DNA of 64,000 nucleotides from NCBI RefSeq assembly GCF_051903065.1, contig NZ_CP178440.1; one strand, 5' to 3'. The notes beneath the pieces are model-generated. The model was not told the origin of the DNA. It saw nothing but the letters and a program-made list of their open reading frames with translations, and did not search any database. The stretch is from Escherichia coli (GTDB lineage Bacteria; Pseudomonadota; Gammaproteobacteria; Enterobacterales; Enterobacteriaceae). The position numbers and the translations under genes were made by a program. Shown piece by piece: positions 120-50,354 of the stretch (positions are counted from its first letter, which is position 1; each line of letters starts with the position of its first letter).

Positions 120-1049
<930 letters not shown>

Positions 1050-27424: not shown

Positions 27425-27539
27425 ATGAAAATGAAGTTTGAGTTGGTTCAAATATAAGAATTTTTATGATTCAAAAAGATGACAATACGTCAGATAATTA
27501 GTATATTAATTACGTGGTTAATGCCACGTTAAAAATTGA

Positions 27540-27615: not shown

Positions 27616-28301
27616 TGTGTGCGCTGGATCGTAGAGAAAGGCCACTTAACAGTCAATCTGTAAATAAGTACATCCTTAACGTTCAGAATATCTACAGAAA
27701 TTCTCCCGTTCCGGTTTGTGTCCGTAACAAAAACCGGAAAATCCTTTATGCCAATGGGGCTTTTATTGAACTCTTTTCCAGAGAAGATAAACCCTTATCC
27801 GGAGAGAGTTATATACGTCTGCAGGTTGAAATTTTTCTTTCATCACTTGAATTGGAATGCCAGGCTCTTGGACATGGCTCTGCATTTTGTCGTCGTTTTA
27901 ATTTTCATGGCGAAATCTATCAGATAAGGATGGAGAATGTTTCTTTTTATAATGACGAATCTGTTGTTTTATGGCAAATTAATCCGTTTCCTGATTATCC
28001 ATTTTTTGCGTTAAGTCAGAGTGGAAGTAATACAAATACTTCTGATAAATTAACGATATGGAATGATCTTTCCCCCGGGACATTGCTTGTTTTCTCTTTT
28101 TATATGCTGGGTGTTGGTCATGCAACAATTGCCAGAGAATTGGGTATTACAGACAGAGCATCTGAGGATCGAATTAAACCAGTTAAACGGAAAATAAAAG
28201 AATTTTTTGAACACTTTGATTTATTCAGAGTGTCATGTATCTATAAAGGGAAAATAGATTTGCTATTAAATATAATTCGTGAATTTTATAGCGTTAAGTA
28301 A
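27615..28301 (+). CDS. traJ: Transfer operon activator TraJ
   Basis: ORF from ATG after RBS ggagg; position between traM and traY; ORF-track start is 20 codons upstream. Confidence 0.8.
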
Positions 28302-28394
28302 ATGTTAAATAAGGCACGCCAATTTTGGCGTGTTTTTTTTCGTCGGTTTCTGTGCAATCATAATTTTATTAGTCGGGAAACAGAGGTGAATTGA

Positions 28395-28622
28395 GTGAGG
28401 AGGCGTAACGCGAGAGGCGGTATAAGCAGAACAGTCTCGGTGTATCTCGATGAAGATACAAATAACCGACTTATTAAGGCCAAAGATCGTAGTGGAAGAA
28501 GTAAAACGATAGAAGTCCAGATCCGTCTCAGAGATCATCTGAAACGATTTCCTGATTTCTATAACGAAGAAATATTCAGGGAGGTGACCGAAGAGAGCGA
28601 GTCAACATTTAAAGAACTTTAG
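28395..28622 (+). CDS. traY: TraY, oriT-binding ribbon-helix-helix protein (GTG start)
   Basis: 75-aa ORF, position before traA. Confidence 0.75.
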   Translation: MRRRNARGGISRTVSVYLDEDTNNRLIKAKDRSGRSKTIEVQIRLRDHLKRFPDFYNEEIFREVTEESESTFKEL

Positions 28623-28655
28623 TTTTTATCTATCAATATTAAACAGAGGAATCAT

Positions 28656-29021
28656 ATGGACGCCGTTTTAAGTGTTCAGGGTGCTTCTGCGCCCGTCAAA
28701 AAGAAGTCGTTTTTTTCCAAATTCACTCGTCTGAATATGCTTCGCCTGGCTCGCGCTGTGATCCCGGCTGCTGTTCTGATGATGTTCTTCCCGCAACTGG
28801 CGATGGCCGCTAGCAGCAGTGGTCAGGACCTGATGGCAAGTGGTAACAACACGGTTAAGGCGACCTTCGGTAAGGACTCCAGTATTGTTAAATGGGTTGT
28901 TCTGGCTGAAGTTCTGGTCGGTGCGGTCATGTACATGATGACCAAAAACGTCAAGTTCCTGGCCGGTTTCGCCATCATCTCTGTATTTATTGCTGTGGGT
29001 ATGGCCGTCGTTGGCCTCTGA
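28656..29021 (+). CDS. traA: Propilin TraA
   Basis: 121 aa, long leader then hydrophobic mature pilin; near-identical to F pilin with substitutions in the mature N-terminal region. Confidence 0.95.
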
Positions 29022-32077: not shown

Positions 32078-32657
32078 TATGTCGTCCCGTCAGGCGTGCC
32101 ATGCCGCCCGGTATGTTGTCGCCCGGGTTCTGCGAGGACTGTTCTGGTGTCTGAAGTACATCGTCATTCTGCCACTGGCCACAATGGCCCTGATGGCTCT
32201 GTTTGTTTTATGGAAGGACAACACCACGCCGGGGAAATTACTGGTTAAGGAGATTAACTTCGTAAGACAAACAGCACCTGCCGGACAGTTCCCGGTCAGT
32301 GAATGCTGGTTTTCTTCCTCTGATTCTTCAGGCAGATCAGAAATACAGGATATCTGCCATTACCGCGCGGCTGATGCTGCAGATTATGTCAGGGAGACTG
32401 ACCGGTCACTGATGCAACTGGTCACCGCATTATGGGCAACACTGGCACTGATGTATGTCTCGCTGGCAGCGATCACCGGGAAATATCCGGTGCTGCCCGG
32501 AAAAATGAAATGTATCCGGGTGGTAACCGCAGATGAATATCTGAAGGACGTTTATACGGAAGACGCTTCCCTGCCGGGAAAAATCAGGAAATGCCCTGTT
32601 TATCTTCCTGATGACAGAACAAACAGAAACAACGGAGATAAAAATGAACATGCGTAA
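32067..32657 (+). CDS. traP: TraP
   Basis: ORF and gene order. Confidence 0.75.
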   Translation: MANNMSSRQACHAARYVVARVLRGLFWCLKYIVILPLATMALMALFVLWKDNTTPGKLLVKEINFVRQTAPAGQFPVSECWFSSSDSSGRSEIQDICHYRAADAADYVRETDRSLMQLVTALWATLALMYVSLAAITGKYPVLPGKMKCIRVVTADEYLKDVYTEDASLPGKIRKCPVYLPDDRTNRNNGDKNEHA

Positions 32658-32841
32658 TATTAATGTTATTACAGCCCTCTCTGTGCCGGGTAAAACCGTG
32701 TCAGATGATTTTATGCATGCTGTTCTCAGTAACTGCGCCACAAGAATCGTACTTCCTGCACCGGAGAAATTCGGTTCTGAGTCATTGCCGGACAATTTTA
32801 ATATGACTGCTGTCGGTGTGATGAAGAATTCAGAAATATAA
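32644..32841 (+). CDS. trbD: TrbD
   Basis: 65 aa from MNMRNINV; gene order. Confidence 0.65.
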   Translation: MNMRNINVITALSVPGKTVSDDFMHAVLSNCATRIVLPAPEKFGSESLPDNFNMTAVGVMKNSEI

Positions 32842-32852
32842 GGAACCCTTCG

Positions 32853-33104
32853 ATGAATAAGCTGGTTTCTGATGGCAGCGTCAAAAAAATAAATTATCCG
32901 GTGCTGTATGAGTCCGGAATAACACCTCCGTTATGTGAAGTCAGTGCACCAGAGCCTGATGCGGGTGGGAAACGCATTGTGGCATATGTTTATAAATCAT
33001 CACGGAATACGGTTTTTGAAAATCCTGACATTGTAAAAACCTGTACGGTCAGGGATTTGAAGAATGATTTTGTGAACTGCGATGAGAAAGGTGAGGGACA
33101 GTGA
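32853..33104 (+). CDS. trbG: TrbG
   Basis: ORF and gene order. Confidence 0.65.
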   Translation: MNKLVSDGSVKKINYPVLYESGITPPLCEVSAPEPDAGGKRIVAYVYKSSRNTVFENPDIVKTCTVRDLKNDFVNCDEKGEGQ

Positions 33105-33616
33105 AACAGATTTCTTTATTTATTCCTCTGCTGGGGACCTTATTACTTTCCGGCTGTGCCGGAACCAGTACGGAATTTGAGTGTAACGCCACCACATCCG
33201 ATACCTGTATGACGATGGAGCAGGCCAATGAGAAGGCCAAAAAACTGGAGCAGTCCTCAGAAGCAAAGCCGGTTGCGGCATCACTGCCGCGCCTGGCTGA
33301 AGGGAACTTCCGGACAATGCCGGTGCAGACCGTCACCGCGACCACTCCGTCCGGCAGCAGACCTGCGGTGACAGCACATCCGGAGCAGAAACTGCTGGCA
33401 CCACGCCCGCTGTTTACCGCTGCCCGGGAAGTGAAAACGATTGTTCCGGTCAGTTCAGTTGCGCCGGTAACACCTCCCCGTCCGCTAAGAACGGGTGAGC
33501 AGACGGCTGCATTATGGATAGCGCCTTATATTGATAATCAGGATGTTTATCATCAGCCATCCAGCGTGTTTTTTGTTATTAAACCGTCTGCGTGGGGAAA
33601 ACCACGTATTAATTAA
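33101..33616 (+). CDS. traV: TraV outer-membrane lipoprotein
   Basis: Lipobox LLSGC; gene order. Confidence 0.85.
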   Translation: MKQISLFIPLLGTLLLSGCAGTSTEFECNATTSDTCMTMEQANEKAKKLEQSSEAKPVAASLPRLAEGNFRTMPVQTVTATTPSGSRPAVTAHPEQKLLAPRPLFTAAREVKTIVPVSSVAPVTPPRPLRTGEQTAALWIAPYIDNQDVYHQPSSVFFVIKPSAWGKPRIN

Positions 33617-33750
33617 CTGGCCCTGAAGTTGTATATCAGCCGGCAATGCCGGCGGGCTTTCTGTATTCAAAATCTGCCTGTAAAACGAGTGCCCTGTGCG
33701 TGAAAAGGGATGGGCGGTAGCGTGTCAGAACATGTCGGGAGGAATATTCC

Positions 33751-33972
33751 GTGAGTGATGAAGCCGATGAAGCATATTCAGTGACAGAACAACTGACCAT
33801 GACAGGAATAAACCGGATACGCCAGAAAATAAATGCTCATGGTATTCCTGTTTATCTCTGTGAAGCATGCGGAAATCCTGTTCCGGAAGCCCGGCGGAAA
33901 ATATTTCCCGGTGTGACGTTGTGCGTTGAATGTCAGGCGTATCAGGAAAGACAGAGAAAACATTATGCATAA
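33751..33972 (+). CDS. traR: TraR (DksA/TraR C4 zinc-finger family)
   Basis: CEACGNP ... CVEC motif. Confidence 0.85.
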   Translation: MSDEADEAYSVTEQLTMTGINRIRQKINAHGIPVYLCEACGNPVPEARRKIFPGVTLCVECQAYQERQRKHYA

Positions 33973-34131
33973 GTCAGTCGCAGAACATAGTGATTTAACT
34001 CCGGATGAACATGAGTGGATATTCAGAAAACAGAAATCTTTGTATATGCGCCGGGAAATGGCGCGTTAATTACAGGTATTCCCTTCATGGCTACCGCATT
34101 TCTCGCTTTATTTTTCAACTAAGGAATTCAT

Positions 34132-36759
34132 GTGAATAACCCACTTGAGGCCGTCACTCAGGCGGTTAACTCCCTCGTCACAGCACTGAAACTGCCTGAC
34201 GAATCCGCAAAGGCCAATGAAGTTCTGGGCGAAATGAGCTTCCCGCAGTTCAGCCGTCTGCTGCCGTACCGTGATTACAACCAGGAATCCGGTCTGTTCA
34301 TGAATGACACCACGATGGGCTTTATGCTGGAAGCCATTCCCATCAATGGGGCGAATGAGTCCATTGTGGAGGCGCTCGACCACATGCTGCGCACCAAACT
34401 GCCGCGCGGAGTGCCGTTCTGCATCCATCTGATGTCCAGTCAGCTTGTTGGTGACAGGATTGAATACGGGCTGCGTGAGTTCTCCTGGTCAGGTGAACAG
34501 GCTGAACGGTTTAACGCCATTACCCGTGCCTATTATATGAACGCGGCAGCGACACAGTTTCCGCTGCCGGAGGGGATGAATCTGCCCCTGACCCTGCGCC
34601 ATTACCGGGTATTCTTCTCGTACTGTTCTCCCTCGAAGAAAAAAAGCCGGGCTGACATTCTGGAAATGGAAAACCTGGTGAAAATCATCCGGGCGTCGTT
34701 ACAGGGGGCCAGTATCACCACACAGGCGGTGGATGCACAGGCCTTTATCGATATTGTCGGGGAGATGATTAACCATAACCCGGACTCCCTGTACCCGAAA
34801 AGACGTCAGCTGGACCCGTATTCTGATCTGAATTATCAGTGTGTGGAGGACAGTTTTGATCTGAAGGTCCGGGCGGATTACCTGACGCTGGGGCTGCGTG
34901 AGAACGGCAGGAACAGCACAGCCCGTATCCTGAATTTCCATCTGGCCCGTAACCCGGAAATCGCCTTCCTGTGGAACATGGCCGATAACTACAGCAATCT
35001 GCTGAACCCGGAAATGTCCATTTCCTGCCCGTTCATCCTGACGCTGACACTGGTGGTGGAAGATCAGGTGAAAACCCACAGTGAAGCCAACCTGAAGTAC
35101 ATGGACCTGGAGAAAAAGTCGAAGACCTCCTATGCCAAATGGTTTCCGTCCGTGGAGAAAGAAGCTAAGGAGTGGGGGGAACTGCGCCAGCGGCTGGGCT
35201 CCGGTCAGTCTTCTGTCGTGTCCTACTTCCTTAACATCACAGCATTCTGCAAGGATAACAATGAAACGGCTCTGGAAGTGGAGCAGGACATTCTGAACAG
35301 CTTTCGTAAAAACGGTTTTGAGCTGATTTCACCGCGCTTTAACCACATGCGCAATTTCCTGACCTGCCTGCCCTTTATGGCCGGGAAAGGGCTGTTTAAA
35401 CAGCTGAAAGAGGCCGGTGTGGTTCAGCGCGCAGAGAGCTTTAATGTGGCCAACCTGATGCCGTTAGTGGCGGATAACCCCCTGACACCGGCAGGCCTGC
35501 TGGCACCCACCTACCGTAACCAGCTGGCGTTTATCGATATCTTCTTTAAGGGGATGAATAACACCAACTACAACATGGCGGTCTGTGGAACATCCGGGGC
35601 CGGTAAAACCGGGTTGATACAGCCACTTATCCGCAGCGTGCTGGACTCCGGGGGCTTTGCCGTGGTGTTCGACATGGGGGATGGCTACAAGTCTTTGTGT
35701 GAGAACATGGGGGGCGTATATCTGGACGGTGAAACCCTGCGCTTTAACCCGTTTGCGAACATCACTGATATTGACCAGTCAGCGGAGCGTGTCCGTGACC
35801 AGTTGTCGGTGATGGCCAGCCCCAACGGTAACCTGGATGAAGTGCATGAAGGTCTGTTGCTGCAGGCGGTCAGAGCCTCCTGGCTGGCTAAAAAGAAGCA
35901 GGCGCGCATTGATGATGTGGTGGATTTCCTGAAAAACGCCCGTGATAACGACCAGTATGTCGAGTCACCGACCATCCGCAGCCGTCTGGACGAAATGATT
36001 GTGCTGCTTGACCAGTACACTGCCAACGGCACTTACGGCCGGTATTTTAACTCTGATGAACCGTCCCTGCGGGATGATGCCAGAATGGTGGTGCTGGAGC
36101 TGGGTGGGCTGGAAGACCGTCCGTCACTGCTGGTTGCGGTGATGTTCAGCCTTATCATTTACATCGAGAACCGGATGTACCGCACGCCGCGTAACCTCAA
36201 GAAACTGAACGTCATTGATGAAGGCTGGCGTCTGCTGGACTTCAAAAATCGTAAAGTTGGTGAGTTTATTCAAAAAGGTTACCGCACCTGTCGCCGTCAT
36301 ACCGGTGCCTATATCACCATCACACAGAACATCGTCGACTTTGACTCTGACAAGGCATCCAGCGCAGCCCGCGCGGCATGGGGTAACTCCTCCTACAAAA
36401 TTATCCTCAAACAGAGTGCGAAGGAGTTCGCGAAATACAACCAGCTGTATCCGGACCAGTTCCTGCCACTGCAGCGCGACATGATTGGTAAGTTTGGTGC
36501 GGCCAAAGACCAGTGGTTCAGTTCCTTCCTGCTGCAGGTGGAGAACCACTCCTCCTGGCACCGTCTGTTTGTGGACCCGTTAAGCCGCGCCATGTACAGC
36601 TCTGACGGCCCGGATTTTGAGTTTGTGCAGCAGAAGCGTAAAGAGGGGCTGAGTATTCATGAGGCGGTGTGGCAGCTGGCGTGGAAGAAGTCAGGGCCGG
36701 AGATGGCTTCGCTGGAAGCCTGGCTGGAAGAACATGAGAAATACAGGAGTGTTGCATGA
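34132..36759 (+). CDS. traC: TraC (VirB4-like type IV secretion ATPase)
   Basis: 875-aa ORF with Walker A GTSGAGKTG. Confidence 0.95.
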   Translation: MNNPLEAVTQAVNSLVTALKLPDESAKANEVLGEMSFPQFSRLLPYRDYNQESGLFMNDTTMGFMLEAIPINGANESIVEALDHMLRTKLPRGVPFCIHLMSSQLVGDRIEYGLREFSWSGEQAERFNAITRAYYMNAAATQFPLPEGMNLPLTLRHYRVFFSYCSPSKKKSRADILEMENLVKIIRASLQGASITTQAVDAQAFIDIVGEMINHNPDSLYPKRRQLDPYSDLNYQCVEDSFDLKVRADYLTLGLRENGRNSTARILNFHLARNPEIAFLWNMADNYSNLLNPEMSISCPFILTLTLVVEDQVKTHSEANLKYMDLEKKSKTSYAKWFPSVEKEAKEWGELRQRLGSGQSSVVSYFLNITAFCKDNNETALEVEQDILNSFRKNGFELISPRFNHMRNFLTCLPFMAGKGLFKQLKEAGVVQRAESFNVANLMPLVADNPLTPAGLLAPTYRNQLAFIDIFFKGMNNTNYNMAVCGTSGAGKTGLIQPLIRSVLDSGGFAVVFDMGDGYKSLCENMGGVYLDGETLRFNPFANITDIDQSAERVRDQLSVMASPNGNLDEVHEGLLLQAVRASWLAKKKQARIDDVVDFLKNARDNDQYVESPTIRSRLDEMIVLLDQYTANGTYGRYFNSDEPSLRDDARMVVLELGGLEDRPSLLVAVMFSLIIYIENRMYRTPRNLKKLNVIDEGWRLLDFKNRKVGEFIQKGYRTCRRHTGAYITITQNIVDFDSDKASSAARAAWGNSSYKIILKQSAKEFAKYNQLYPDQFLPLQRDMIGKFGAAKDQWFSSFLLQVENHSSWHRLFVDPLSRAMYSSDGPDFEFVQQKRKEGLSIHEAVWQLAWKKSGPEMASLEAWLEEHEKYRSVA

Positions 36760-37142: not shown

Positions 37143-37771
37143 GATGCCGGGGGCTGATTGCCCTGCTGATATGGGGGCAGAGTGTGACCGCCGCCGATCT
37201 TGGTACCTGGGGCGATCTGTGGCCGGTAAAGGAGCCGGACATGCTGACGGTGATCATGCAGCGCCTGACGGCACTGGAGCAGTCCGGTGAGATGGGCCGG
37301 AAAATGGATGCCTTTAAGGAGCGGGTGATCCGCAACAGTCTGCGGCCCCCTGCCGTGCCCGGTATCGGACGCACGGAGAAATACGGCAGCCGGTTGTTTG
37401 ACCCGTCCGTCAGACTGGCTGCGGATATCCGGGATAACGAAGGGCGGGTGTTTGCCCGTCAGGGTGAAGTGATGAATCCGCTGCAGTATGTTCCTTTTAA
37501 CCAGACGCTGTATTTCATCAATGGCGATGATCCGGCGCAGGTGGCCTGGATGAAACGCCAGACGCCGCCCACACTGGAGAGCAAAATTATCCTCGTGCAG
37601 GGCAGTATCCCGGAGATGCAGAAGTCTCTGGACAGCCGTGTTTACTTTGACCAGAACGGTGTGCTCTGCCAGCGCCTCGGCATTGATCAGGTCCCGGCAC
37701 GGGTGAGCGCCGTTCCCGGCGATCGCTTCCTGAAGGTGGAATTTATTCCGGCAGAGGAGGGCAGAAAATGA
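37139..37771 (+). CDS. traW: TraW
   Basis: Start ATG overlaps trbI stop (ATGA); ORF-track version over-extended upstream. Confidence 0.85.
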   Translation: MRCRGLIALLIWGQSVTAADLGTWGDLWPVKEPDMLTVIMQRLTALEQSGEMGRKMDAFKERVIRNSLRPPAVPGIGRTEKYGSRLFDPSVRLAADIRDNEGRVFARQGEVMNPLQYVPFNQTLYFINGDDPAQVAWMKRQTPPTLESKIILVQGSIPEMQKSLDSRVYFDQNGVLCQRLGIDQVPARVSAVPGDRFLKVEFIPAEEGRK

Positions 37772-38760
37772 AGCGAAGCCTGTGGCTGCTGATGTTATTC
37801 CTTCTCGCCGGTCATGTCCCTGCAGCGTCTGCGGATTCTGCCTGTGAAGGGCGTTTTGTAAACCCGATCACGGATATCTGCTGGAGCTGTATTTTCCCGC
37901 TCTCGCTGGGCAGTATCAAAGTCAGTCAGGGTAAGGTCCCCGACACGGCGAACCCGTCGATGCCCATTCAGATTTGTCCGGCACCGCCGCCGCTGTTCAG
38001 GCGTATCGGGCTGGCCATTGGTTACTGGGAGCCGATGGCGCTGACGGATGTCACCCGGTCACCGGGATGCATGGTGAACCTGGGCTTCAGCCTGCCAGCT
38101 TTTGGTAAAACGGCACAGGGAACGGCGAAAAAGGATGAGAAGCAGGTGAACGGGGCGTTCTATCACGTTCACTGGTACAAATACCCGCTGACGTACTGGC
38201 TGAACATCATCACATCGCTGGGCTGTCTGGAAGGTGGTGACCTGGATATCGCTTATCTTTCTGAAATTGACCCCACCTGGACGGACAGCAGCCTGACCAC
38301 CATTCTCAATCCGGAAGCTGTCATCTTTGCCAATCCGATAGCACAGGGGGCCTGTGCAGCAGATGCCATTGCCAGCGCCTTTAATATGCCTCTCGATGTT
38401 CTGTTCTGGTGTGCCGGTTCGCAGGGCAGCATGTACCCGTTCAATGGCTGGGTGAGTAATGAGTCCAGTCCGTTGCAGTCCTCCCTGCTGGTCAGTGAAC
38501 GCATGGCGTTCAAGCTGCACCGTCAGGGCATGATTATGGAAACCATCGGGAAAAATAACGCCGTCTGTAATGAATATCCGTCCCCAATCCTGCCCAAAGA
38601 ACGCTGGCGTTATCAGATGGTGAATATGTATCCGGACAGCGGACAGTGCCACCCGTTCGGGCGCAGTGTGATGCGCTGGGAGACGGGAAAAAATCCGCCC
38701 AACACAAAGAAAAACTTCGGCTACCTGATGTGGCGTAAACGTAACTGTGTATTTCTGTAA
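37768..38760 (+). CDS. traU: TraU
   Basis: 330-aa ORF with signal peptide; gene order. Confidence 0.9.
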   Translation: MKRSLWLLMLFLLAGHVPAASADSACEGRFVNPITDICWSCIFPLSLGSIKVSQGKVPDTANPSMPIQICPAPPPLFRRIGLAIGYWEPMALTDVTRSPGCMVNLGFSLPAFGKTAQGTAKKDEKQVNGAFYHVHWYKYPLTYWLNIITSLGCLEGGDLDIAYLSEIDPTWTDSSLTTILNPEAVIFANPIAQGACAADAIASAFNMPLDVLFWCAGSQGSMYPFNGWVSNESSPLQSSLLVSERMAFKLHRQGMIMETIGKNNAVCNEYPSPILPKERWRYQMVNMYPDSGQCHPFGRSVMRWETGKNPPNTKKNFGYLMWRKRNCVFL

Positions 38761-38786
38761 CTTAAACAAAAAGAGGAATATTTTAA

Positions 38787-39095
38787 ATGGAAAAGAAATT
38801 AAGCAGTAAATACATTCATATGTATATGAGTATATCCCGAGTGTTCATTCGTTTGACAGGAAATGTATTAAAACTGTTTCCTTTTGCTATGGTGATATGC
38901 CCTGTGGTGTGGTTTTATCTTTGCCCTGAACATATTATCTCAGACATTGTTAACGACTGGCAGGATGCAGATACACTGGAAAAAATACTGCTTGTCAAAC
39001 TGTATCTGAAGACGGTTCTTATTCTGACAGTGGTAAGCGTTGTTGTCTTGTATCTTTCGTCAGATAAGTTTATGCCTGTTAAACGCAGGAAATGA
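38787..39095 (+). CDS. Hypothetical small membrane protein (two predicted hydrophobic helices), AT-rich
   Basis: ORF; hydrophobic stretches LKLFPFAMVICPVVWFYL and LKTVLILTVVSVVVLYL. Confidence 0.5.
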   Translation: MEKKLSSKYIHMYMSISRVFIRLTGNVLKLFPFAMVICPVVWFYLCPEHIISDIVNDWQDADTLEKILLVKLYLKTVLILTVVSVVVLYLSSDKFMPVKRRK

Positions 39096-39157
39096 GTCTG
39101 GTGGTTCTCATAAATATAACTGTGTGTGCATGTGTACAATATAAGTAAAGGTGCGTT

Positions 39158-39679
39158 ATGGGATTTTTCTCGTTTTTACGAAAGATAAGTAATAAAGAAA
39201 AAGGGGTGGTTATCTATGAGAAGCAGTGGTTCTCACTGCTGGAAAAGGTGAGTGCTTTTGATGAGGTCAGACAATGGGCTGAAAGTAATGGTGGAGCATA
39301 TTATCCTCTGCTGGAGTGTCGTCGGCTTACAGACAGTGAAAATGTCAGGAAATCAGAGGATATACTGAACCGACTGGAGTTTATTGACAGAAGATTTCGG
39401 GAATTCATCAGCATTATGTCTGAACATATTAATAATGATAAAACTAAATCCATGTGGGAGAGGGAATTGTCTGAATATCCACCGGAAAAAATATACCAGG
39501 TCCGGAGAGAGGGAGAACATCTGTCATTAAAAAATTATGGTGATGATATTACTCTGAACAGAGATACCGCCGTGGCTACGGTGCAGATTACTGTCAGCAG
39601 AAAATGCATTACTCAGGAAGAAATGGATGAATTATATGCATTGTCTGAGAGACTGAAAGAAAAGTGCGCCGGTAATTAA
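39158..39679 (+). CDS. Hypothetical soluble protein (173 aa), AT-rich
   Basis: ORF; no recognised motif. Confidence 0.5.
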   Translation: MGFFSFLRKISNKEKGVVIYEKQWFSLLEKVSAFDEVRQWAESNGGAYYPLLECRRLTDSENVRKSEDILNRLEFIDRRFREFISIMSEHINNDKTKSMWERELSEYPPEKIYQVRREGEHLSLKNYGDDITLNRDTAVATVQITVSRKCITQEEMDELYALSERLKEKCAGN

Positions 39680-39690: not shown

Positions 39691-40344
39691 GTGCCGGGAG
39701 ATGATATGAGCCGGAAAATATTTGAACTTTTTGCCCTGACAGCAGGACTGTTTATTTCTGCCCACGCTTCGGAAAATGTGAATACACCCGAAAACCGCCA
39801 GTTCCTGAAGCAGCAGGAAACACTGAGTCAGCAGTTACGTGAAAAACCGGACACACAGCTGCAGGCATGGGCAGAACAGCAGGTCAGGGCGAATCCCCTT
39901 CAGCATTCCGATAACCAGTTTCTCGATGAACTGGTCCGTAAACAGCAGGCTGCTCAGAAGGATAAACCACAGCAGGGTGCCGTGTATTTTGTGTCGTTTT
40001 CCATACCCGAAGAGGGGCTGAAACGGATGCTGGGAGAAACCCGGCACTACGGTATTCCGGCCACACTGCGGGGTATGGTGAACAACGACCTGAAAGCCAC
40101 GGCTGAAGCAGTGCTGTCTCTGGTGAAAGACGGTGCGACCGATGGTGTTCAGATTGACCCGACGCTGTTTTCACAGTACGGCATTCGCAGCGTGCCGGCT
40201 CTGGTGGTGTTCTGCAGCCAGGGGCACGACATCATCCGGGGAAATCTGCGCGTCAGACAGGCGCTGGAGAAAGTGGCCGCCACAGGAGACTGCCGGCAGG
40301 TGGCTCAGGGACTGCTGGACGGCACCGGGGATAAGTCGCAATGA
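39691..40344 (+). CDS. trbC: TrbC
   Basis: ORF with signal peptide; gene order. Confidence 0.8.
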   Translation: MPGDDMSRKIFELFALTAGLFISAHASENVNTPENRQFLKQQETLSQQLREKPDTQLQAWAEQQVRANPLQHSDNQFLDELVRKQQAAQKDKPQQGAVYFVSFSIPEEGLKRMLGETRHYGIPATLRGMVNNDLKATAEAVLSLVKDGATDGVQIDPTLFSQYGIRSVPALVVFCSQGHDIIRGNLRVRQALEKVAATGDCRQVAQGLLDGTGDKSQ

Positions 40345-40712
40345 GTTTACCTGCAGGCTATTACCGGATTGACCCGGACATCCGTGCACTGGTGGCCGCG
40401 ATGAACGTTCACGGATTTCGTACATATGCGTCCTGTCAGGGGCATGGTTTCCCTGTTACAAAGCTGCCGCCTTATATCGCCTTTGCCTGTCCGGTAAAAA
40501 TGGCTGCCCTTCTGGAGCAGCGACTGCGGCAGGATGCTGAATCAGCAATACCACGTCTGACATGGGGATGGTCGGTGAAGGGGACTTTTAACAGTGATTT
40601 TCAGCTTTGCTTCCGGCTTCAGCCTGAAGGCCCTCATCACTGGTATCACCGGTACTGTCGCCGCTCACTGCGTGCAGACTTCAGGACGCTGGTCCGATTA
40701 GTGAATCCGTAA
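40341..40712 (+). CDS. Hypothetical protein (123 aa) between trbC and traN
   Basis: ORF, translationally coupled to trbC. Confidence 0.5.
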   Translation: MSLPAGYYRIDPDIRALVAAMNVHGFRTYASCQGHGFPVTKLPPYIAFACPVKMAALLEQRLRQDAESAIPRLTWGWSVKGTFNSDFQLCFRLQPEGPHHWYHRYCRRSLRADFRTLVRLVNP

Positions 40713-40734
40713 ATCTGTTCCCGTTAAGGAGGCA

Positions 40735-41160
40735 TTGATGGCGCTGACAAAGAAACAGCGGGAAAAACTGCGTATGAAATTCGGTGGCCGTTGTGCGTAC
40801 TGCGGCTGTGAACTGCCGGAGAAAGGATGGCATGCCGACCATGTTCAGGCGGTGCTCCGCAAGTCAGAGCAGTGCATGAAGGCTGCAGAAAAGCGCATTT
40901 TCAGGCTGAAATCCACCGGTGATGTTTTCAGACCGGAGGCCGACTGTCCGGAAAACCTCGTCCCGGCCTGTGCGCCGTGCAACCTGCTGAAAACAACATA
41001 TTCGCTGGAGATGTTCAGAACGCAGGTGTCCCTGCAGGTTGAACGGGGGCGAAGAAGCAGCGTGAATTTCAGGACCGCAGAACGGTTCGGGCTGATTCAG
41101 GTGGTGAACAAACCAGTCGTGTTCTGGTTTGAGCAATATCAGAGGGAGAGTGAGGTATGA
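40735..41160 (+). CDS. HNH endonuclease-family protein
   Basis: CAYCGC ... HADH ... CAPCN zinc/HNH motif pattern. Confidence 0.7.
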   Translation: MMALTKKQREKLRMKFGGRCAYCGCELPEKGWHADHVQAVLRKSEQCMKAAEKRIFRLKSTGDVFRPEADCPENLVPACAPCNLLKTTYSLEMFRTQVSLQVERGRRSSVNFRTAERFGLIQVVNKPVVFWFEQYQRESEV

Positions 41161-43030: not shown

Positions 43031-43291
43031 ATGATGAAGGTCATATTCACGTCGAACCGTTTTATTGATTTTCTTATCCGGCTTTTGATTACAGCGATTG
43101 TCATTTCCCCGGTAATTATCTGGTCGTGGGATACGGTAAAAGAAACCACGGCAAACGGGATGCTTGCCGCTGCTTTCGTTATCCTTTACTCCGGTGTGCT
43201 CCTGTTTATTCTGTATTTTTGTTTTTCTGCCCTGACTGACCTGCAGAAACCTGATGAAAGAAAAAATGATGAAAGGAATGAAGATGAATAA
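43031..43291 (+). CDS. trbE: TrbE
   Basis: ORF and gene order. Confidence 0.7.
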   Translation: MMKVIFTSNRFIDFLIRLLITAIVISPVIIWSWDTVKETTANGMLAAAFVILYSGVLLFILYFCFSALTDLQKPDERKNDERNEDE

Positions 43292-44027
43292 AGCATTACT
43301 GCCACTGTTACTCTGCTGCTTTATTTTTCCGGCGTCAGGGAAAGATGCAGGCTGGCAGTGGTATAACGAGAAAATAAATCCGAAGGAAAAAGAAAATAAA
43401 CCTGTACCTGCAGCCCCCCGTCAGGAGCCGGATATTATGCAGAAACTGGCCGCGCTGCAGACGGCAACAAAGCGGGCGCTGTACGAAGCCATTCTGTATC
43501 CCGGTGTGGATAATTTTGTGAAATATTTCCGGCTGCAGAATTACTGGACTCAGCAGGCCGGGCTTTTCACCATGAGTGCTAAAAAGGCCATGCTGGCACA
43601 TCCCGAACTGGACTATAACCTGCAGTACAGCCATTACAACGGCACGGTACGGAACCAGCTGGCAGCAGACCAGGCGCAGCAGCGACAGGCGATTGCCAGA
43701 CTGGCAGAGCATTACGGCATTATGTTTTTTTACCGGGGGCAGGAACCCATCGACGGGCAGCTGGCGCAGGTCATTAATGGCTTCAGGGATACCTATGGTC
43801 TGAGTGTTATTCCCGTTTCCGTGGATGGCGTGATTAATCCGCTGTTGCCGGATTCCCGGACTGACCAGGGGCAGGCGCAGCGCCTCGGCGTGAAATATTT
43901 CCCGGCCATGATGCTGGTTGACCCGAAACAGGGCAGTGTTCGTCCGTTATCATACGGTTTTATTTCGCAGGACGACCTGGCAAAACAGTTCCTGAACGTT
44001 TCTGAAGATTTTAAACCGAACTTCTGA
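43284..44027 (+). CDS. traF: TraF (thioredoxin-fold pilus assembly protein)
   Basis: 247 aa from MNKALLPLLLCC, matches F TraF as recalled. Confidence 0.9.
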   Translation: MNKALLPLLLCCFIFPASGKDAGWQWYNEKINPKEKENKPVPAAPRQEPDIMQKLAALQTATKRALYEAILYPGVDNFVKYFRLQNYWTQQAGLFTMSAKKAMLAHPELDYNLQYSHYNGTVRNQLAADQAQQRQAIARLAEHYGIMFFYRGQEPIDGQLAQVINGFRDTYGLSVIPVSVDGVINPLLPDSRTDQGQAQRLGVKYFPAMMLVDPKQGSVRPLSYGFISQDDLAKQFLNVSEDFKPNF

Positions 44028-44142
44028 ATTACGGATATTTTCCGTTCGTCAGTAAATTCCATTAATTCTGAACCTGGTAATAATTCACCATTTATTCCGG
44101 TAGTCCCTTATTTAATTCTCTGTATGACAGGAGAGTTTTACT

Positions 44143-44424
44143 GTGCATAAATATAAATTCTCTTTACCCCGGCTTGATATTACGGGAATGTGGGTATTTT
44201 CCCTGGGTGTCTGGTTTCATATCGTCGCCCGTCTTGTTTACAGCAAACCCTGGATGGCTTTTTTTCTGGCGGAGTTGATTGCGGCCATCCTTGTGCTGTT
44301 CGGCGCATACCAGGTGCTGGATGCATGGATTGCCCGTGTCAGCCGGGAAGAGCGTGAGGCACTGGAAGCCAGGCAACAGGCCATGATGGCAGAGCAGCAG
44401 GAGGGCGGACATGTCTCTCACTAA
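44143..44424 (+). CDS. traQ: TraQ pilin chaperone (small inner-membrane protein); trbA appears absent
   Basis: 93-aa ORF with hydrophobic helices directly before trbB. Confidence 0.6.
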   Translation: MHKYKFSLPRLDITGMWVFSLGVWFHIVARLVYSKPWMAFFLAELIAAILVLFGAYQVLDAWIARVSREEREALEARQQAMMAEQQEGGHVSH

Positions 44425-44956: not shown

Positions 44957-45260
44957 GCAGGTGGTGTTACTCATTGCCGGAATATCCGGCATCGCGACGG
45001 GAATAATCGTCAGCCTGAATATCCCCTTTATCCGTCAGGGGCTTTTTTATCCCGCCAGCCCTGTAGAAATAGTCGTTTCGCTGTGTCTTACCTTTTCTGT
45101 TTCTGTTGTGTTTTTTGTGGGGGCAATTGTGGGATGGATTTTGGTGTCTGAAATATATTACAGCCGCATGACCGGTCTGAATGAATCATCAGTAATATCA
45201 GAGGAAACTTATAATGACAGCAAACAAAAAGAATCAGGAATTCAAAATCAGAAAAATTAG
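44946..45260 (+). CDS. trbJ: TrbJ (GTG start)
   Basis: In-frame GTG within ORF 44853-45260; hydrophobic small protein; start not certain. Confidence 0.5.
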   Translation: MRNKQVVLLIAGISGIATGIIVSLNIPFIRQGLFYPASPVEIVVSLCLTFSVSVVFFVGAIVGWILVSEIYYSRMTGLNESSVISEETYNDSKQKESGIQNQKN

Positions 45261-45606
45261 ACGGAATATTGAGTATAGTTTCAGGGATTCTGACAGATAT
45301 TTTGATTTGTTTATTGTTTTCCTTGTTGCCGGAATTGTTTTATGGGCAGTTATGCACGTTATTTTCGATGTCTGTATTGATTCATGGATGGCCGACCCGA
45401 AATTACTTAATTTCCAGTATATGTGGAATGTTCTGATGAAAGTCATTCCGTTTACGTTATGGGCGCTGGCAGCAGGGTTTCTTGTTACATTTTTTCTGTC
45501 CCCAATGTGCGAATTAATATTCGGAAATATCATGATATTCCTGCTGAAACGCCGTATGCGCCGGGAGAACACATTAAGGGAGGGCAGCAATAATGCTTCG
45601 CATTAA
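45214..45606 (+). CDS. trbF: TrbF
   Basis: ORF and gene order. Confidence 0.7.
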   Translation: MTANKKNQEFKIRKIRRNIEYSFRDSDRYFDLFIVFLVAGIVLWAVMHVIFDVCIDSWMADPKLLNFQYMWNVLMKVIPFTLWALAAGFLVTFFLSPMCELIFGNIMIFLLKRRMRRENTLREGSNNASH

Positions 45607-46966: not shown

Positions 46967-49779
46967 ATGAAGTTTATGTGATTGCCGGTGGTGAGTGGTT
47001 GCGGAATAACCTGAACGCCATTGCCGCCTTTATGGGAACCAGGACGTGGGATTCCATTGAAAAAATTGCGCTCACATTGTCTGTTCTCGCGGTGGCCGTG
47101 ATGTGGGTACAGCGGCACAACGTGATGGATTTGCTGGGCTGGGTGGCCGTGTTTGTGCTTATCAGCCTGCTGGTTAATGTCCGCACATCGGTGCAGATTA
47201 TTGATAACAGTGACCTGGTCAAAGTTCACCGGGTGGATAATGTACCGGTCGGACTGGCGATGCCACTTTCACTGACGACCCGTATCGGGCATGCGATGGT
47301 GGCAGGTTATGAGATGGTGTTCGCTCAGCCTGACAGCGCCACCTACAGCAAGACAGGCATGCTGTTCGGGGCGAACCTGATTGTGAAAAGCACCGATTTC
47401 CTGTCCCGGAATCCGGAAATCATCAATCTGTTTCAGGACTACGTCCAGAACTGCGTGCTGGGTGATATTTACCTGAACCACAAATACACGCTGGAAGACC
47501 TGATGGCCTCCGGTGACCCCTACACGCTGATTTTTTCCCGGCCCAGCCCGCTACGGGGCGTTTATGACAGCAATAATAATTTCATAACCTGTAAAGATGC
47601 GTCGGTCACGCTGAAAGACAGGCTGAATCTCGATACAAAGACGGGAGGCAAGACCTGGCATTATTATGTGCAGCAGATATTTGGCGGCAGGCCGGACCCT
47701 GACCTGTTATTCAGACAACTGGTGAGTGACAGTTACAGTTATTTCTACGGCTCCAGCCAGTCTGCCAGCCAGATTATGCGCCAGAACGTCACCATGAATG
47801 CCCTGAAAGAGGGTATCACCAGTAATGCGGCCCGTAACGGTGATACCGCCAGCCTGGTCAGTCTGGCCACGACTTCGTCGATGGAGAAACAGCGTCTGGC
47901 ACATGTCTCCATTGGTCATGTGCTGATGCGAAACCTGCCGATGGTGCAGACCATTCTGGTGGGCATTACCATTGGTATCTTCCCGCTCCTGGTACTGGCG
48001 GCTGTCTTCAACAGACTGACGCTGTCTGTTCTGAGAGGCTATGTGTTTGCTCTGATGTGGTTCCAGACCTGGCCGTTGCTGTATGCCATTCTGAACAGTG
48101 CCATGACATTCTATGCAAAGCAGAATGGTGCACCGGTCGTGCTCTCTGAACTCTCTCAGATACAGCTGAAATACTCCGACCTGGCGTCCACTGCCGGATA
48201 TATATCTGTCATGATACCCCCGTTGTCATGGATGATGGTAAAAGGCCTTGGCGCAGGTTTTTCCAGCGTGTACAGCCATTTCGCTTCCTCTGCTATCAGT
48301 CCAACTGCCAGTGCGGCAGGTAGTGTGGTTGACGGTAATTACTCCTACGGCAACATGCAGACGGAAAACGTGAACGGCTTCAGCTGGAGCACCAACAGCA
48401 CCACGTCGTTTGGTCAGATGATGTACCAGACCGGCAGTGGCGCAACCGCCACACAGACCCGTGACGGTAATATGGTGATGGATGCAAGCGGAGCTATGTC
48501 CCGGTTACCGGTCGGCATCAATGCAACGCGTCAGATTGCGGCAGCACAACAGGAAATGTCCCGGGAAGCATCGAACAGAGCAGAAAGTGCCCTGCATGGG
48601 TTCAGCAGCAGTATTGCCAGTGCCTGGAACACGCTCAGTCAGTTTGGTTCTAACCGGGGGAGCAGTGATTCTGTCACAGGTGGTGCTGACAGCACCATGA
48701 GCGCACAGGACTCCATGATGGCCAGCCGTATGCGCAGTGCAGTGGAAAGCTATGCGAAGGCGCATAATATCAGTAATGAGCAGGCGACAAGAGAACTGGC
48801 ATCGAGAAGTACAAATGCGTCGCTTGGCCTTTACGGTGATGCTTATGCTAAAGGGCATTTAGGCATAAGTGTATTGGGTAACGGTGGAGGGGTTGGTCTC
48901 CAGGCCGGAGCTAAGGCAAGCATTGATGGCAGTGATCTTGACTCACATGAAGCCAGTAGTGGTTCACGGGCCAGCCATGATGCTCGTCATGATATCGATG
49001 CCAGAGCTACACAAGACTTTAAAGAGGCCAGCGATTACTTTACCAGCCGCAAAGTCAGTGAATCCGGCAGCCATACTGACAATAATGCCGATTCCCGCGT
49101 GGACCAGCTGTCTGCAGCCCTGAACTCAGCGAAACAGAGTTACGACCAGTACACGACGAATATGACCCGCAGCCATGAATATGCTGAAATGGCATCCCGT
49201 ACTGAAAGCATGAGTGGGCAGATGAGTGAAGATCTGTCGCAACAGTTTGCACAGTATGTGATGAAACACGCACCGCAGGATGCCGAAGCTATTCTGACAA
49301 ACACCAGTTCACCGGAGATTGCAGAACGCCGCCGGGCGATGGCGTGGTCTTTTGTGCAGGAACAGGTGCAGCCTGGTGTTGATAATGCCTGGCGTGAATC
49401 CCGTGGCGATATTGGTAAAGGAATGGAGAGCGTACCTTCGGGTGGTGGCAGCCAGGATATTATTGCTGACCATCAGGGGCATCAGGCCATTATTGATCAA
49501 AGAACGCAGGACAGTAATATCCGGAATGATGTAAAACATCAGGTTGATAATATGGTCACAGAATATAAAGGGAATATAGGTGATACTCAGAACAGTATCC
49601 GTGGCGAGGAAAATATTGTAAGAGGGCAGTATTCTGAACTACAAAATCATCATAAAACAGAAGCATTAACTCAGAATAATAAATATAATGAAGAAAAGCT
49701 GGCTCAGGAAAGAATACCTGGTGCTGATAGTCCGAAAGAGCTTTTAGAGAAAGCAAAGAGTTACCAGCATAAAGAATAA
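46963..49779 (+). CDS. traG: TraG (mating-pair stabilisation / entry-exclusion determinant)
   Basis: 938-aa ORF, N-terminal membrane domain. Confidence 0.9.
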   Translation: MNEVYVIAGGEWLRNNLNAIAAFMGTRTWDSIEKIALTLSVLAVAVMWVQRHNVMDLLGWVAVFVLISLLVNVRTSVQIIDNSDLVKVHRVDNVPVGLAMPLSLTTRIGHAMVAGYEMVFAQPDSATYSKTGMLFGANLIVKSTDFLSRNPEIINLFQDYVQNCVLGDIYLNHKYTLEDLMASGDPYTLIFSRPSPLRGVYDSNNNFITCKDASVTLKDRLNLDTKTGGKTWHYYVQQIFGGRPDPDLLFRQLVSDSYSYFYGSSQSASQIMRQNVTMNALKEGITSNAARNGDTASLVSLATTSSMEKQRLAHVSIGHVLMRNLPMVQTILVGITIGIFPLLVLAAVFNRLTLSVLRGYVFALMWFQTWPLLYAILNSAMTFYAKQNGAPVVLSELSQIQLKYSDLASTAGYISVMIPPLSWMMVKGLGAGFSSVYSHFASSAISPTASAAGSVVDGNYSYGNMQTENVNGFSWSTNSTTSFGQMMYQTGSGATATQTRDGNMVMDASGAMSRLPVGINATRQIAAAQQEMSREASNRAESALHGFSSSIASAWNTLSQFGSNRGSSDSVTGGADSTMSAQDSMMASRMRSAVESYAKAHNISNEQATRELASRSTNASLGLYGDAYAKGHLGISVLGNGGGVGLQAGAKASIDGSDLDSHEASSGSRASHDARHDIDARATQDFKEASDYFTSRKVSESGSHTDNNADSRVDQLSAALNSAKQSYDQYTTNMTRSHEYAEMASRTESMSGQMSEDLSQQFAQYVMKHAPQDAEAILTNTSSPEIAERRRAMAWSFVQEQVQPGVDNAWRESRGDIGKGMESVPSGGGSQDIIADHQGHQAIIDQRTQDSNIRNDVKHQVDNMVTEYKGNIGDTQNSIRGEENIVRGQYSELQNHHKTEALTQNNKYNEEKLAQERIPGADSPKELLEKAKSYQHKE

Positions 49780-49811
49780 TCGTAACATGTTGGGTAGGGT
49801 ATGGAGAGGCC

Positions 49812-50333
49812 ATGATTACACAACAAATTATCAGTAGTGAGTTGGAAGTTTTAAAGAAACATATTGACTCAGGAGATATTAGAATTCCGTCACTATGGCA
49901 GGGATTAAAACCCGGGTTTATAATCATGGGATGGATGATTTTTTGTCCCTTACTAATGTCATTTCTAATAACACAAAAGACAAGTGAAACACTCACTGCT
50001 GTGTTAGCCGGAGGATGGCTTGGACTTATTATTCTGTTTATTGTGGCAAGGATTAGAATGTTATATTTCTCTCTGCCGGAAGAATTCCTAAAGACATCAT
50101 CCGTAATGAGGATTATATCATCAAAACTGAAAGTGTATTTCATTGTGTATATGGGAATTATATTTTTATGGTCTTTTTTAGGTGGAGGGATTATATACGG
50201 TTTTGGTGCAATTTTAGTGACGGTTATTATGGCGTTCTTGATTCAATTAGATATCGGTAGATATCAATTTGTTGGTGTTATTGATGCAATCAATAGTTAC
50301 GTCAAAAACAAGAAGTTATCAAGAGTAAAATAA
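49812..50333 (+). CDS. traS: TraS entry exclusion inner-membrane protein
   Basis: Hydrophobic 173-aa ORF, AT-rich, between traG and traT. Confidence 0.75.
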   Translation: MITQQIISSELEVLKKHIDSGDIRIPSLWQGLKPGFIIMGWMIFCPLLMSFLITQKTSETLTAVLAGGWLGLIILFIVARIRMLYFSLPEEFLKTSSVMRIISSKLKVYFIVYMGIIFLWSFLGGGIIYGFGAILVTVIMAFLIQLDIGRYQFVGVIDAINSYVKNKKLSRVK

Positions 50334-50354
50334 AAGATATTAGAGAGTAAATAT

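What the first reader, a model, noticed from the sequence alone, without database searches (positions are those of the whole stretch)
38787..39679. AT-rich two-gene insertion inside the tra operon between traU and trbC
In the core F gene order traU is followed by trbC. Here a small two-helix membrane protein (102 aa) and a 173-aa soluble protein sit between them, visibly AT-rich against the GC-richer flanking tra genes, suggesting horizontally acquired cargo. Membrane-plus-soluble pairs embedded in transfer operons could act in exclusion, defence or anti-defence during mating. I recall similar hypothetical ORFs in some IncFII backbones, but none with assigned function.
Basis: partly seen in the sequence, partly recalled or inferred. 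Interest (0 to 1): 0.5.

Follow-up and report, generated by a model that had tools for sequence, protein, structure and literature searches.

The report
Variable gene slot between traU and trbC
Two uncharacterised genes, a small inner-membrane hairpin protein and a cytoplasmic orphan protein, fill a swap-prone slot inside the mating operon of a common resistance plasmid; they are real, fast-evolving genes, not known pilus genes, and their function is still unknown.

Summary
ORFs of 102 aa (38787-39095) and 173 aa (39158-39679) lie between the traU stop and the trbC start. Their GC is 0.39, against 0.55 in the flanks. The window is a pHN7A8-type IncFII plasmid.

- **Comparison with F and R100.** F has 8 nt at this junction. 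R100 has one 101-aa homologue of ORF1.
- **A cassette slot.** The junction holds at least seven different contents across F-like plasmids, all with the same boundaries.
- **ORF1.** It belongs to a diverse two-transmembrane hairpin family, found in about 2,000 PLSDB plasmids.
- **ORF2.** It is an orphan. An exhaustive search of 1.84 billion representative proteins found only two full-length clusters, both at this junction.
- **Link between the two.** In sister plasmids the ORF2 domain is fused to a second hairpin copy, giving a 259-aa protein. ORF2 here looks like a detached version of that protein.
- **Evolution and expression.** dN/dS is 0.2-0.8 for both ORFs and 0.02-0.18 for traU and trbC. 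Neither ORF has a + strand promoter or terminator of its own.
- **Database and structure searches.** No Pfam, NCBIfam, PADLOC, PHROG, PDB or TraS similarity was found. AlphaFold models were unusable.

Best reading: a dispensable, membrane-tethered accessory module expressed with the transfer machinery, probably related to conflict between mobile elements. That function is inferred, not shown. Interest is moderate.

The parts
37768..38760 (+). traU, the conserved left boundary of the slot. All alleles diverge immediately after its stop codon.
   Evidence: Annotated as traU in pHN7A8, which is 100% identical here. Boundary shown by alignment A2. dN/dS 0.00-0.08.
38771..38777 (+). Shine-Dalgarno-like AAGAGGA, 9 nt upstream of the ORF1 ATG.
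   Evidence: Read directly from the sequence.
38787..39095 (+). ORF1, 102 aa: a two-transmembrane hairpin protein. Predicted topology is N-in/C-in, with a basic N-tail, an acidic loop and a basic KRRK C-terminus. It belongs to the family found at this junction in R100, pO86A1 and pSLT-type plasmids.
   Evidence: ORF. Hydropathy. Homologues 40-59% identical at the same site. Invariant residues K29, P32, F33, V36, W58, L72, Y73, L74. 176 clusters at 90% identity. Present in 2,024 PLSDB plasmids. dN/dS 0.23-0.64. No Pfam, NCBIfam, PADLOC or PHROG hit.
39096..39157 (+). Spacer between the ORFs. Relative to the fusion allele it stands in for about 300 nt: a 41-nt traU 3' duplicate plus most of a second hairpin gene. 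Its 3' part aligns weakly to the coding sequence of that gene's second transmembrane helix. Contains a Shine-Dalgarno-like AAAGGTG at 39147-39153.
   Evidence: Alignment with L007. BLAST layout. Sequence. No + strand promoter or terminator.
39158..39679 (+). ORF2, 173 aa: a soluble, presumably cytoplasmic orphan domain. Its N-terminus MGFFSFLRKISNKEKG corresponds to the hairpin-domain linker of the 259-aa fusion protein.
   Evidence: ORF. Fusion proteins P0012/P0019 and locus L007. Only 2 full-length clusters among 1.84e9 representative proteins. 32% identical 150-aa relative in pFORC_081_1, paired there with a small P-loop ATPase. Present in 802 PLSDB plasmids. dN/dS 0.35-0.84. No Pfam, NCBIfam, PADLOC, PHROG or PDB hit.
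39706..40344 (+). trbC, the conserved right boundary of the slot. GGGAG lies 5 nt upstream of its ATG.
   Evidence: PGAP annotation in pHN7A8. Sequence. dN/dS 0.02-0.18.

Best explanation
**Shown**
1. The traU-trbC junction of F-like plasmids is a cassette slot. Its boundaries are fixed at the traU stop and the trbC start, and its content is exchanged by recombination.
2. In this pHN7A8-type plasmid the slot holds two genes: ORF1, a member of the R100-type two-transmembrane hairpin family, and ORF2, an orphan soluble domain.
3. In sister plasmids the ORF2 domain is covalently fused to the C-terminus of a second hairpin copy.
4. The slot has no + strand promoter or terminator of its own.
5. Both proteins evolve several-fold faster than their neighbours but are kept as intact ORFs.

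**Inferred**
1. The fusion and the positive-inside rule place the ORF2 domain on the cytoplasmic face of the inner membrane. It would be tethered there by a hairpin, or by its leftover hydrophobic-basic N-terminus.
2. The pair is made only when the tra operon is transcribed, that is, in transfer-proficient, piliated cells.
3. It is dispensable for pilus assembly and DNA transfer, because F lacks it and other plasmids carry unrelated genes in its place.
4. Its most likely role is an accessory one in competition between mobile elements: exclusion-like, inhibition of rival elements, or protection of piliated cells. It is less likely to be part of the core machine. The molecular target is unknown.
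For: **Slot**
- Seven or more contents share identical boundaries: empty (F), a 101/102-aa hairpin (R100, pO86A1, pSLT-type), a truncated hairpin plus remnant, hairpin + 173 aa (here), 59 aa + hairpin + 173 aa, hairpin + 259-aa fusion, P-loop ATPase + 150 aa, and three membrane-anchored ORFs in IncFIIK.
- Recombination breakpoints fall at the boundaries. Between this window and R100, traU has dS 0.056 and dN 0, while ORF1 has dS 1.14 and dN 0.47.
- L007 carries a 41-nt duplicate of the traU 3' end between its two cassettes.

**Functional link between the two ORFs**
- 259-aa hairpin-domain fusions occur in several diverged variants and on many contigs.

**Real genes**
- ORF1 length and motifs persist down to about 40% identity.
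- The ORF2 family persists down to 32% identity.
- The two-ORF layout occurs in at least three alleles with 86-88% identical ORF2.
- dN/dS is below 1 in every pair compared.

**Fast evolution**
- dN/dS is 0.23-0.84 for the two ORFs, against 0.00-0.18 for traU and trbC.

**Other points**
- Operon-coupled expression: no + strand promoter or terminator.
- Not core machinery: no Tra/Trb model hit and no homologue in the F transfer region.
- Analogy: SXT/R391 elements have intergenic hotspots with fixed boundaries inside an F-type transfer backbone (PMC2791158). One of these carries phage defence (bioRxiv 10.1101/2020.12.16.423150).
Against: - There is no experimental or homology evidence for any function.
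- No PADLOC hit and no TraS similarity were found.
- Raised dN/dS is equally compatible with relaxed constraint. No region of ORF1 exceeds pN/pS 1. A single ORF2 pair is not significantly below neutrality by my rough count.
- ORF1 and ORF2 alleles reassort. L017 has an ORF1 identical to the window's but an ORF2 only 84% identical. The two are therefore not a tightly co-adapted pair.
- The hairpin occurs without the soluble domain (R100), and the domain occurs without a hairpin (pFORC_081_1 type).
- Low GC is shared with accepted trb genes.
- ORF2 here may be a truncated remnant.
Confidence: 0.45

Rival explanations
1. Lineage-specific tuning factors of the F-type secretion machine. ORF1, with ORF2 as an add-on, would be a non-essential inner-membrane accessory comparable to TrbI, TraP, TrbE or TrbJ/TrbF. 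It would modulate pilus dynamics or mating efficiency in R100-type backbones.
For: - The ORF1 family keeps a fixed position in about 2,000 plasmids, about 95% of which are typed as conjugative.
- Motifs are conserved at the helix ends and in the loop.
- It is co-transcribed with pilus genes.
- Its low GC matches that of the other small trb genes.
- The IncFIIK junction also encodes membrane-anchored proteins.
Against: - It is absent from F, which transfers efficiently.
- It is replaced by unrelated genes in other plasmids.
- dN/dS is several-fold above that of the flanking assembly genes.
- Truncated alleles exist in plasmids still typed as conjugative.
- No similarity to any Tra/Trb model was found.
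Confidence: 0.25
2. Functionless or decaying passenger DNA. The cassettes would persist by hitch-hiking in a position that tolerates insertions, and ORF2 would be a leftover of a broken fusion gene.
For: - ORF2 lacks the hairpin that its relatives carry, and the spacer looks like decayed coding sequence.
- dN/dS reaches 0.84.
- Truncated or frameshifted alleles exist (L004; P0037).
- The many 100%-identical copies reflect clonal spread of one successful plasmid lineage.
Against: - Intact ORFs are kept across alleles that differ by 12-14% in protein sequence.
- The ORF2 family is recognisable at 32% identity, with colinear conserved motifs.
- dN/dS is below 1 in all 16 pairwise comparisons of the two ORFs.
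- Ribosome-binding motifs are retained.
Confidence: 0.15
3. A toxin/antitoxin-like or abortive module. The two-helix membrane protein would be a holin-like toxin, held in check or triggered by the soluble partner. It would stabilise the tra operon or kill infected donor cells.
For: - ORF1 is a small N-in/C-in two-helix protein with a strongly basic C-terminus, which resembles class II holins and membrane toxins (topology; the comparison is from my own knowledge).
- The partner differs between alleles: hairpin, fusion or ATPase.
- Toxin-antitoxin genes do occur between tra genes; PGAP calls vapBC between traD and traI in F.
Against: - The hairpin occurs alone in R100 and pSLT-type plasmids.
- There is no promoter of its own for autoregulation.
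- No PHROG holin hit and no PADLOC hit were found.
- ORF1 and ORF2 alleles reassort freely.
Confidence: 0.08
4. Anti-defence or another effector delivered to, or acting for, the recipient during mating.
For: Only the general context of a conjugative plasmid. No specific result supports it.
Against: - The position is deep in the tra operon. By established knowledge of F transfer this region enters the recipient late, whereas known anti-defence genes cluster in the leading region.
- ORF1 is an integral membrane protein.
- Relatives of ORF2 are membrane-anchored fusions.
Confidence: 0.03

Closest known systems
The single 101-aa ORF between traU and trbC of R100 (WP_000224416) and pO86A1; the pSLT-type 102-aa ORF
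   Same: ORF1 has the same position and length, the same two-helix hydropathy, and the shared motifs LKLFPF, FYF-P, W and LYL. Identity is 40-46%.
   Different: Those plasmids lack ORF2. The sequences are far more diverged than the flanking genes: between the window and R100, traU has dN 0 while ORF1 has dN 0.47. None has an assigned function.
259-aa hairpin-domain fusion proteins (P0012, P0019) in sister F-like plasmids (L007-L009)
   Same: The C-terminal 170 residues are 86% identical to ORF2. The locus and flanks are the same, and a free hairpin ORF precedes the fusion.
   Different: There the domain is covalently joined to its own hairpin, and a 41-nt traU 3' duplicate separates the two cassettes. 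Here about 300 nt are missing and ORF2 starts at a new ATG.
Intergenic variable-DNA hotspots of SXT/R391 integrative conjugative elements
   Same: Variable genes sit between conserved genes of an F-type transfer backbone. Boundaries are fixed, contents are shared and shuffled by recombination between elements, and transfer genes are not interrupted (PMC2791158; here).
   Different: The slot here is much smaller, 0-2 kb, and is read through as part of a single long operon. No known defence, resistance or toxin-antitoxin genes have been identified in it so far.
TraS entry-exclusion protein of F-like plasmids
   Same: Both are small, AT-rich, highly variable inner-membrane proteins encoded inside the tra operon.
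   Different: There is no sequence relationship: hhalign probability 0.4%. TraS has about four hydrophobic segments against two in ORF1. TraS lies between traG and traT. This plasmid already has its own traS.

Membership tests
Established F-type Tra/Trb pilus-assembly and mating-pair proteins | Match to a curated Tra/Trb family model (NCBIfam or Pfam), or a homologue in the F transfer region | tested here: not met
   ORF1 and ORF2 had no significant NCBIfam or Pfam hit; the best E-values were 0.03-0.08 to unrelated families. tblastn against the F transfer region gave nothing below E = 0.9.
Established F-type Tra/Trb pilus-assembly and mating-pair proteins | Required for pilus formation or transfer | not testable with these tools
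   Indirect only. F lacks both genes, and other plasmids typed as conjugative carry unrelated genes at the site.
TraS-type entry exclusion | Sequence or profile similarity to TraS | tested here: not met
   hhalign of the ORF1 family and the ORF2 family against this plasmid's TraS gave probabilities of 0.4% and 0.2%.
TraS-type entry exclusion | Reduces entry of a related plasmid when expressed in the recipient | not testable with these tools
   This needs an exclusion-index assay.
Known anti-phage defence systems (PADLOC-DB 2.0) | Match to a defence-system protein model | tested here: not met
   No hits for ORF1, ORF2, the 259-aa fusion or the free hairpin. Among the alternative cargo, the 153-aa ATPase gave only weak P-loop-level hits, E about 1e-3 to 1e-4.
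Hotspot for variable DNA in a conjugative-element backbone (SXT/R391 sense) | Intergenic site between conserved core genes, with fixed boundaries and differing content | tested here: met
   All alleles diverge right after the traU stop and rejoin at the trbC start. At least seven contents were seen.
Hotspot for variable DNA in a conjugative-element backbone (SXT/R391 sense) | Contents exchanged between elements by recombination (mosaicism) | tested here: met
   dS changes sharply at the boundaries. The ORF1 N-terminal segment comes in two types that are swapped between alleles. ORF1 and ORF2 reassort. Cassette order differs between L004 and L018, and L007 carries a traU 3' duplicate.
Type II toxin-antitoxin module | Adjacent toxin and antitoxin that always occur together, with a promoter of their own | tested here: not met
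   No + strand promoter. The hairpin occurs alone and the soluble domain occurs without a hairpin.
Class II holin-like small membrane proteins | Two transmembrane helices, N-in/C-in, charged C-terminus; membership in a holin family | tested here: inconclusive
   Hydropathy and charge distribution fit (and the sequence itself). No PHROG or Pfam holin family matches. Lysis activity was not tested.

The most novel reading that the evidence does not exclude
The traU-trbC junction, and perhaps the neighbouring trbC-traN and traT-traD junctions, could be a conflict hotspot wired into the transfer operon. Its cargo would be made exactly when the cell is piliated. The hairpin plus orphan-domain module would then be a new membrane-tethered system. 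It would protect donors against pilus-dependent phages or rival conjugative elements, or set a second layer of plasmid-plasmid exclusion.
Probability: 0.15. Interest if true: 0.7.

Novelty: new member of a known kind. Interest (0 to 1): 0.4.

Why it matters
- **Clinical relevance.** F-like plasmids are the main carriers of resistance and virulence genes in Enterobacteriaceae. This exact pair rides on the epidemic pHN7A8-type backbone found in E. coli and Klebsiella pneumoniae.
- **A correction to how tra operons are read.** The tra operon is usually treated as a fixed machine. Here it contains a swap-prone cassette slot, which points to gene content that annotation pipelines label 'hypothetical'.
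- **A testable hypothesis.** The fusion links a membrane hairpin to an orphan domain, which gives something concrete to test.
- **Possible consequences.** If the module affects transfer, exclusion or phage sensitivity, it would help explain differences in spread between closely related plasmids. If it does nothing, it marks a neutral landing site that could be useful for engineering.

Tried and rejected
- **Family libraries.** Pfam, NCBIfam, PADLOC and PHROGs gave no significant hit for ORF1, ORF2, the fusion or the alternative cargo. The exception was a marginal AAA_14/P-loop match for the 153-aa partner.
- **Solved structures by sequence.** A profile search of the PDB found nothing below E = 0.08.
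- **Structure prediction.** AlphaFold2 on the ORF2 family gave pLDDT 54, and on the 259-aa fusion with a 31-sequence alignment gave pLDDT 46. Both are unusable.
- **Homology to TraS or to any F transfer-region product.** Rejected.
- **RNA element in the AT-rich stretch.** No Rfam match at E of 1 or below.
- **Own promoter or terminator.** None on the + strand. The counts found do not exceed the shuffled expectation.
- **Read-through or frameshift joining ORF1 to ORF2 in this window.** Rejected. The two frames differ and stop codons intervene in all frames.
- **Literature.** Searches on the traU-trbC junction, F-like comparative genomics, IncFII plasmid papers and plasmid-dependent phages found no description of these ORFs.
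- **Regional pN/pS along ORF1.** No segment exceeds 1, so there is no positive-selection signal at this resolution.

Full report
**1.

The window matches plasmid pHN7A8 (IncFII, F33:A-:B- type) at 100% identity across this region.

- traU ends at 38760. ORF1 (102 aa) runs 38787-39095, ORF2 (173 aa) runs 39158-39679, and trbC starts at 39706.
- ORF1 has two hydrophobic segments. ORF2 has none.
- The two ORFs together (38787-39679) have GC 0.386. traU has 0.548 and trbC 0.556. That puts the stretch in the lowest 4.4% of same-size windows in the tra region.
- In F, traU and trbC are 8 nt apart.
- One caveat applies. Several accepted small tra/trb genes in this operon are equally AT-rich: traM/J/Y, trbD/G, trbE, trbJ/F and traS. 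Base composition alone does not prove recent acquisition.

**2. The junction is a cassette slot**

I joined 600 nt of traU 3' sequence to 600 nt of trbC 5' sequence and searched PLSDB with it. Different plasmids showed different spacings. Fetching examples gave the following contents:

| Content of the junction | Example |
|---|---|
| Nothing | F; L006 |
| One 101/102-aa ORF | R100, pO86A1, pSLT-type |
| Truncated 92-aa ORF plus about 280 nt of remnant | L004 |
| 102/103 aa + 172/173 aa | this window, L013-L017 |
| 59 aa + 103 aa + 173 aa | L018 |
| 103 aa + 259 aa | L007-L009 |
| 153-aa P-loop ATPase + 150 aa | pFORC_081_1, L019 |
| Three other membrane-anchored ORFs, one on the opposite strand | IncFIIK plasmid, L010 |

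- In every allele divergence begins right after the traU stop codon and ends at the trbC start.
- Substitution rates change abruptly at those boundaries. Between the window and R100, traU has dS 0.056 and dN 0, whereas ORF1 has dS 1.14 and dN 0.47.
- L007 carries a 41-nt duplicate of the traU 3' end between its two cassettes. This looks like a scar of unequal recombination between two plasmids with different cargo.
- The 59-aa cassette DNA lies before the hairpin in L018 and after the truncated hairpin in L004, so cassette order shuffles.

**3. ORF1**

- It is 40-59% identical to the single ORFs of R100/pO86A1, 05-3629 and pSLT-type plasmids.
- A profile search found 176 clusters at 90% identity, all 90-127 aa. 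All that carry an organism name come from Escherichia or Salmonella, and none has a Pfam domain.
- tblastn finds the family in 2,024 PLSDB plasmids, 1,931 of them typed as conjugative.
- Invariant or nearly invariant positions lie at the helix ends and in the loop: LKLFPF, FY..P, W58, D62 and LYL.
- The basic N-tail, acidic loop and basic KRRK C-terminus predict an N-in/C-in hairpin. This is inferred from the positive-inside rule.
- N-terminal segments come in two types that are recombined onto different bodies.

**4. ORF2**

- A word-indexed search found only close relatives.
- An exhaustive HMMER search of 1.84 billion representative proteins, using a family profile, found 19 hits. Only two are full-length clusters: this one and the 150-aa pFORC_081_1 type, which is 32% identical. 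The rest are fragments.
- tblastn finds the family in 802 PLSDB plasmids.
- The representative of its cluster is a 259-aa protein. The N-terminal 90 or so residues of that protein are a hairpin-family member, 57% identical to the R100 type. The remainder is 86% identical to ORF2.
- This fusion exists in several diverged variants and on many contigs. It always lies between a free 103-aa hairpin gene and trbC.
- Alignment shows that the window lacks about 300 nt present in L007: the traU duplicate plus most of the second hairpin. The ORF2 N-terminus MGFFSFLRKISNKEKG corresponds to the fusion's linker YLFSVLRKGGNKEKG.
- I therefore read ORF2 as a detached cytoplasmic domain. The direction of the change is inferred, not proven.
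- The detached layout is not a one-off. It occurs in at least three alleles whose ORF2 proteins differ by 12-14%.

**5. Selection and expression**

Nei-Gojobori estimates:

| Gene | dN/dS range |
|---|---|
| traU | 0.00-0.08 |
| trbC | 0.02-0.18 |
| ORF1 | 0.23-0.64 |
| ORF2 | 0.35-0.84 |

- Both ORFs are constrained (always below 1, frames kept) but much less so than their neighbours.
- No ORF1 segment exceeds pN/pS 1.
- There is no + strand promoter-like or terminator-like site inside the slot, and both ORFs have ribosome-binding motifs. Expression should therefore follow the tra operon; this is inferred.
- ORF1 and ORF2 alleles reassort. L017 has the window's ORF1 protein but an ORF2 only 84% identical.

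**6. What it is not**

- Neither ORF matches Pfam, NCBIfam (including Tra/Trb models), PADLOC or PHROGs.
- There is no homologue in the F transfer region or elsewhere in the window.
- There is no relation to this plasmid's TraS.
- There is no PDB sequence match and no Rfam element.
- AlphaFold2 gave low-confidence models, pLDDT 54 and 46. A fold search on the first was empty.
- Source databases call the proteins 'hypothetical' or give a position-based 'conjugative transfer protein'.
- I found no paper describing them.

**7. Interpretation**

The firm conclusions are structural and evolutionary:
- the junction is a recombination-driven cassette slot;
- ORF1 belongs to a resident hairpin family;
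- the ORF2 domain is linked to that hairpin by a natural fusion.

Function is inferred. The best reading is a dispensable module at the cytoplasmic face of the inner membrane, made when the transfer genes are on. Given its turnover and rate of change, it is more likely an accessory involved in competition between mobile elements than a part of the machine.

The main rivals are a lineage-specific tuning factor of the secretion system and functionless passenger DNA. A toxin-like module and an anti-defence effector are less likely.

The closest documented analogy is the set of intergenic hotspots in the F-type backbone of SXT/R391 elements (PMC2791158). One of those hotspots carries phage defence (bioRxiv 10.1101/2020.12.16.423150). 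That is a resemblance in architecture, not evidence of the same function.

**8. Verdict**

The genes themselves are already present, unnamed, in thousands of database records. What is new here is the slot architecture, the hairpin-domain fusion and the orphan status of ORF2. Interest is moderate (0.4). It would rise sharply if a phenotype were found.

Noticed in passing
window 40341-41160: The next junction, trbC-traN, is also filled. It holds a 123-aa ORF with no family hit (40341-40712) and an HNH endonuclease (40735-41160; phrog_2118 at 2e-58; weak PtuB and retron-HNH hits). F and R100/pO86A1 have nothing there. An IncFIIK plasmid has a homologue of the 123-aa ORF in the same place (L010 6775-7158).
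   Followed up: partly
window about 51292-52029 (L011 28875-29612): A 245-aa hypothetical ORF lies between traT and traD. It is also present in R100 and has no NCBIfam or PADLOC hit. This may be a third accessory slot in the operon.
   Followed up: partly
window 27042-28791, 32542-33141, 33742-34141, 43042-43341, 43892-44291, 44992-45591, 49392-50591, 51142-51691: These are further low-GC islands (0.38-0.43) in the tra operon. They coincide with traM/J/Y, trbD/G, traR, trbE, the traF-traQ gap, trbJ/F, the traG 3' end with traS, and the traT-downstream region. The small or variable genes are systematically AT-rich.
   Followed up: partly
window about 43990-44190 (traF-traQ gap; L011 21611-21770): pHN7A8 has a roughly 160-nt gap between traF and traQ with no annotated gene. 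F carries trbA and artA there, and R100 carries trbA.
   Followed up: no
L020 27967-28592 (F plasmid NC_002483): RefSeq annotation of F places a vapBC toxin-antitoxin pair on the opposite strand between traD and traI. This is another example of accessory genes lodged between transfer genes.
   Followed up: no
L003 926-1387 and L019 731-1192: The alternative partner of the ORF2-type domain is a minimal 153-aa P-loop protein with Walker A GEEDTGKST. Pfam AAA_14 matches at 9e-4, and there are weak hits to anti-phage ATPase models (DS8, mad8). The 150-aa type occurs in about 287 PLSDB plasmids.
   Followed up: partly
L010 4115-5986 (IncFIIK pEGKP4.1): The Klebsiella IncFIIK traU-trbC junction holds three unrelated ORFs of 182, 229 (opposite strand) and 200 aa. 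Each has 2-3 hydrophobic segments plus a soluble part. GC is 0.44 against 0.58 in the flanks, and none has a family hit.
   Followed up: partly
L018 592-771 and L004 about 1300-1450: A 59-aa soluble ORF cassette lies before the hairpin gene in L018. The same DNA lies after the truncated hairpin in L004, so cassette order within the slot is not fixed.
   Followed up: partly
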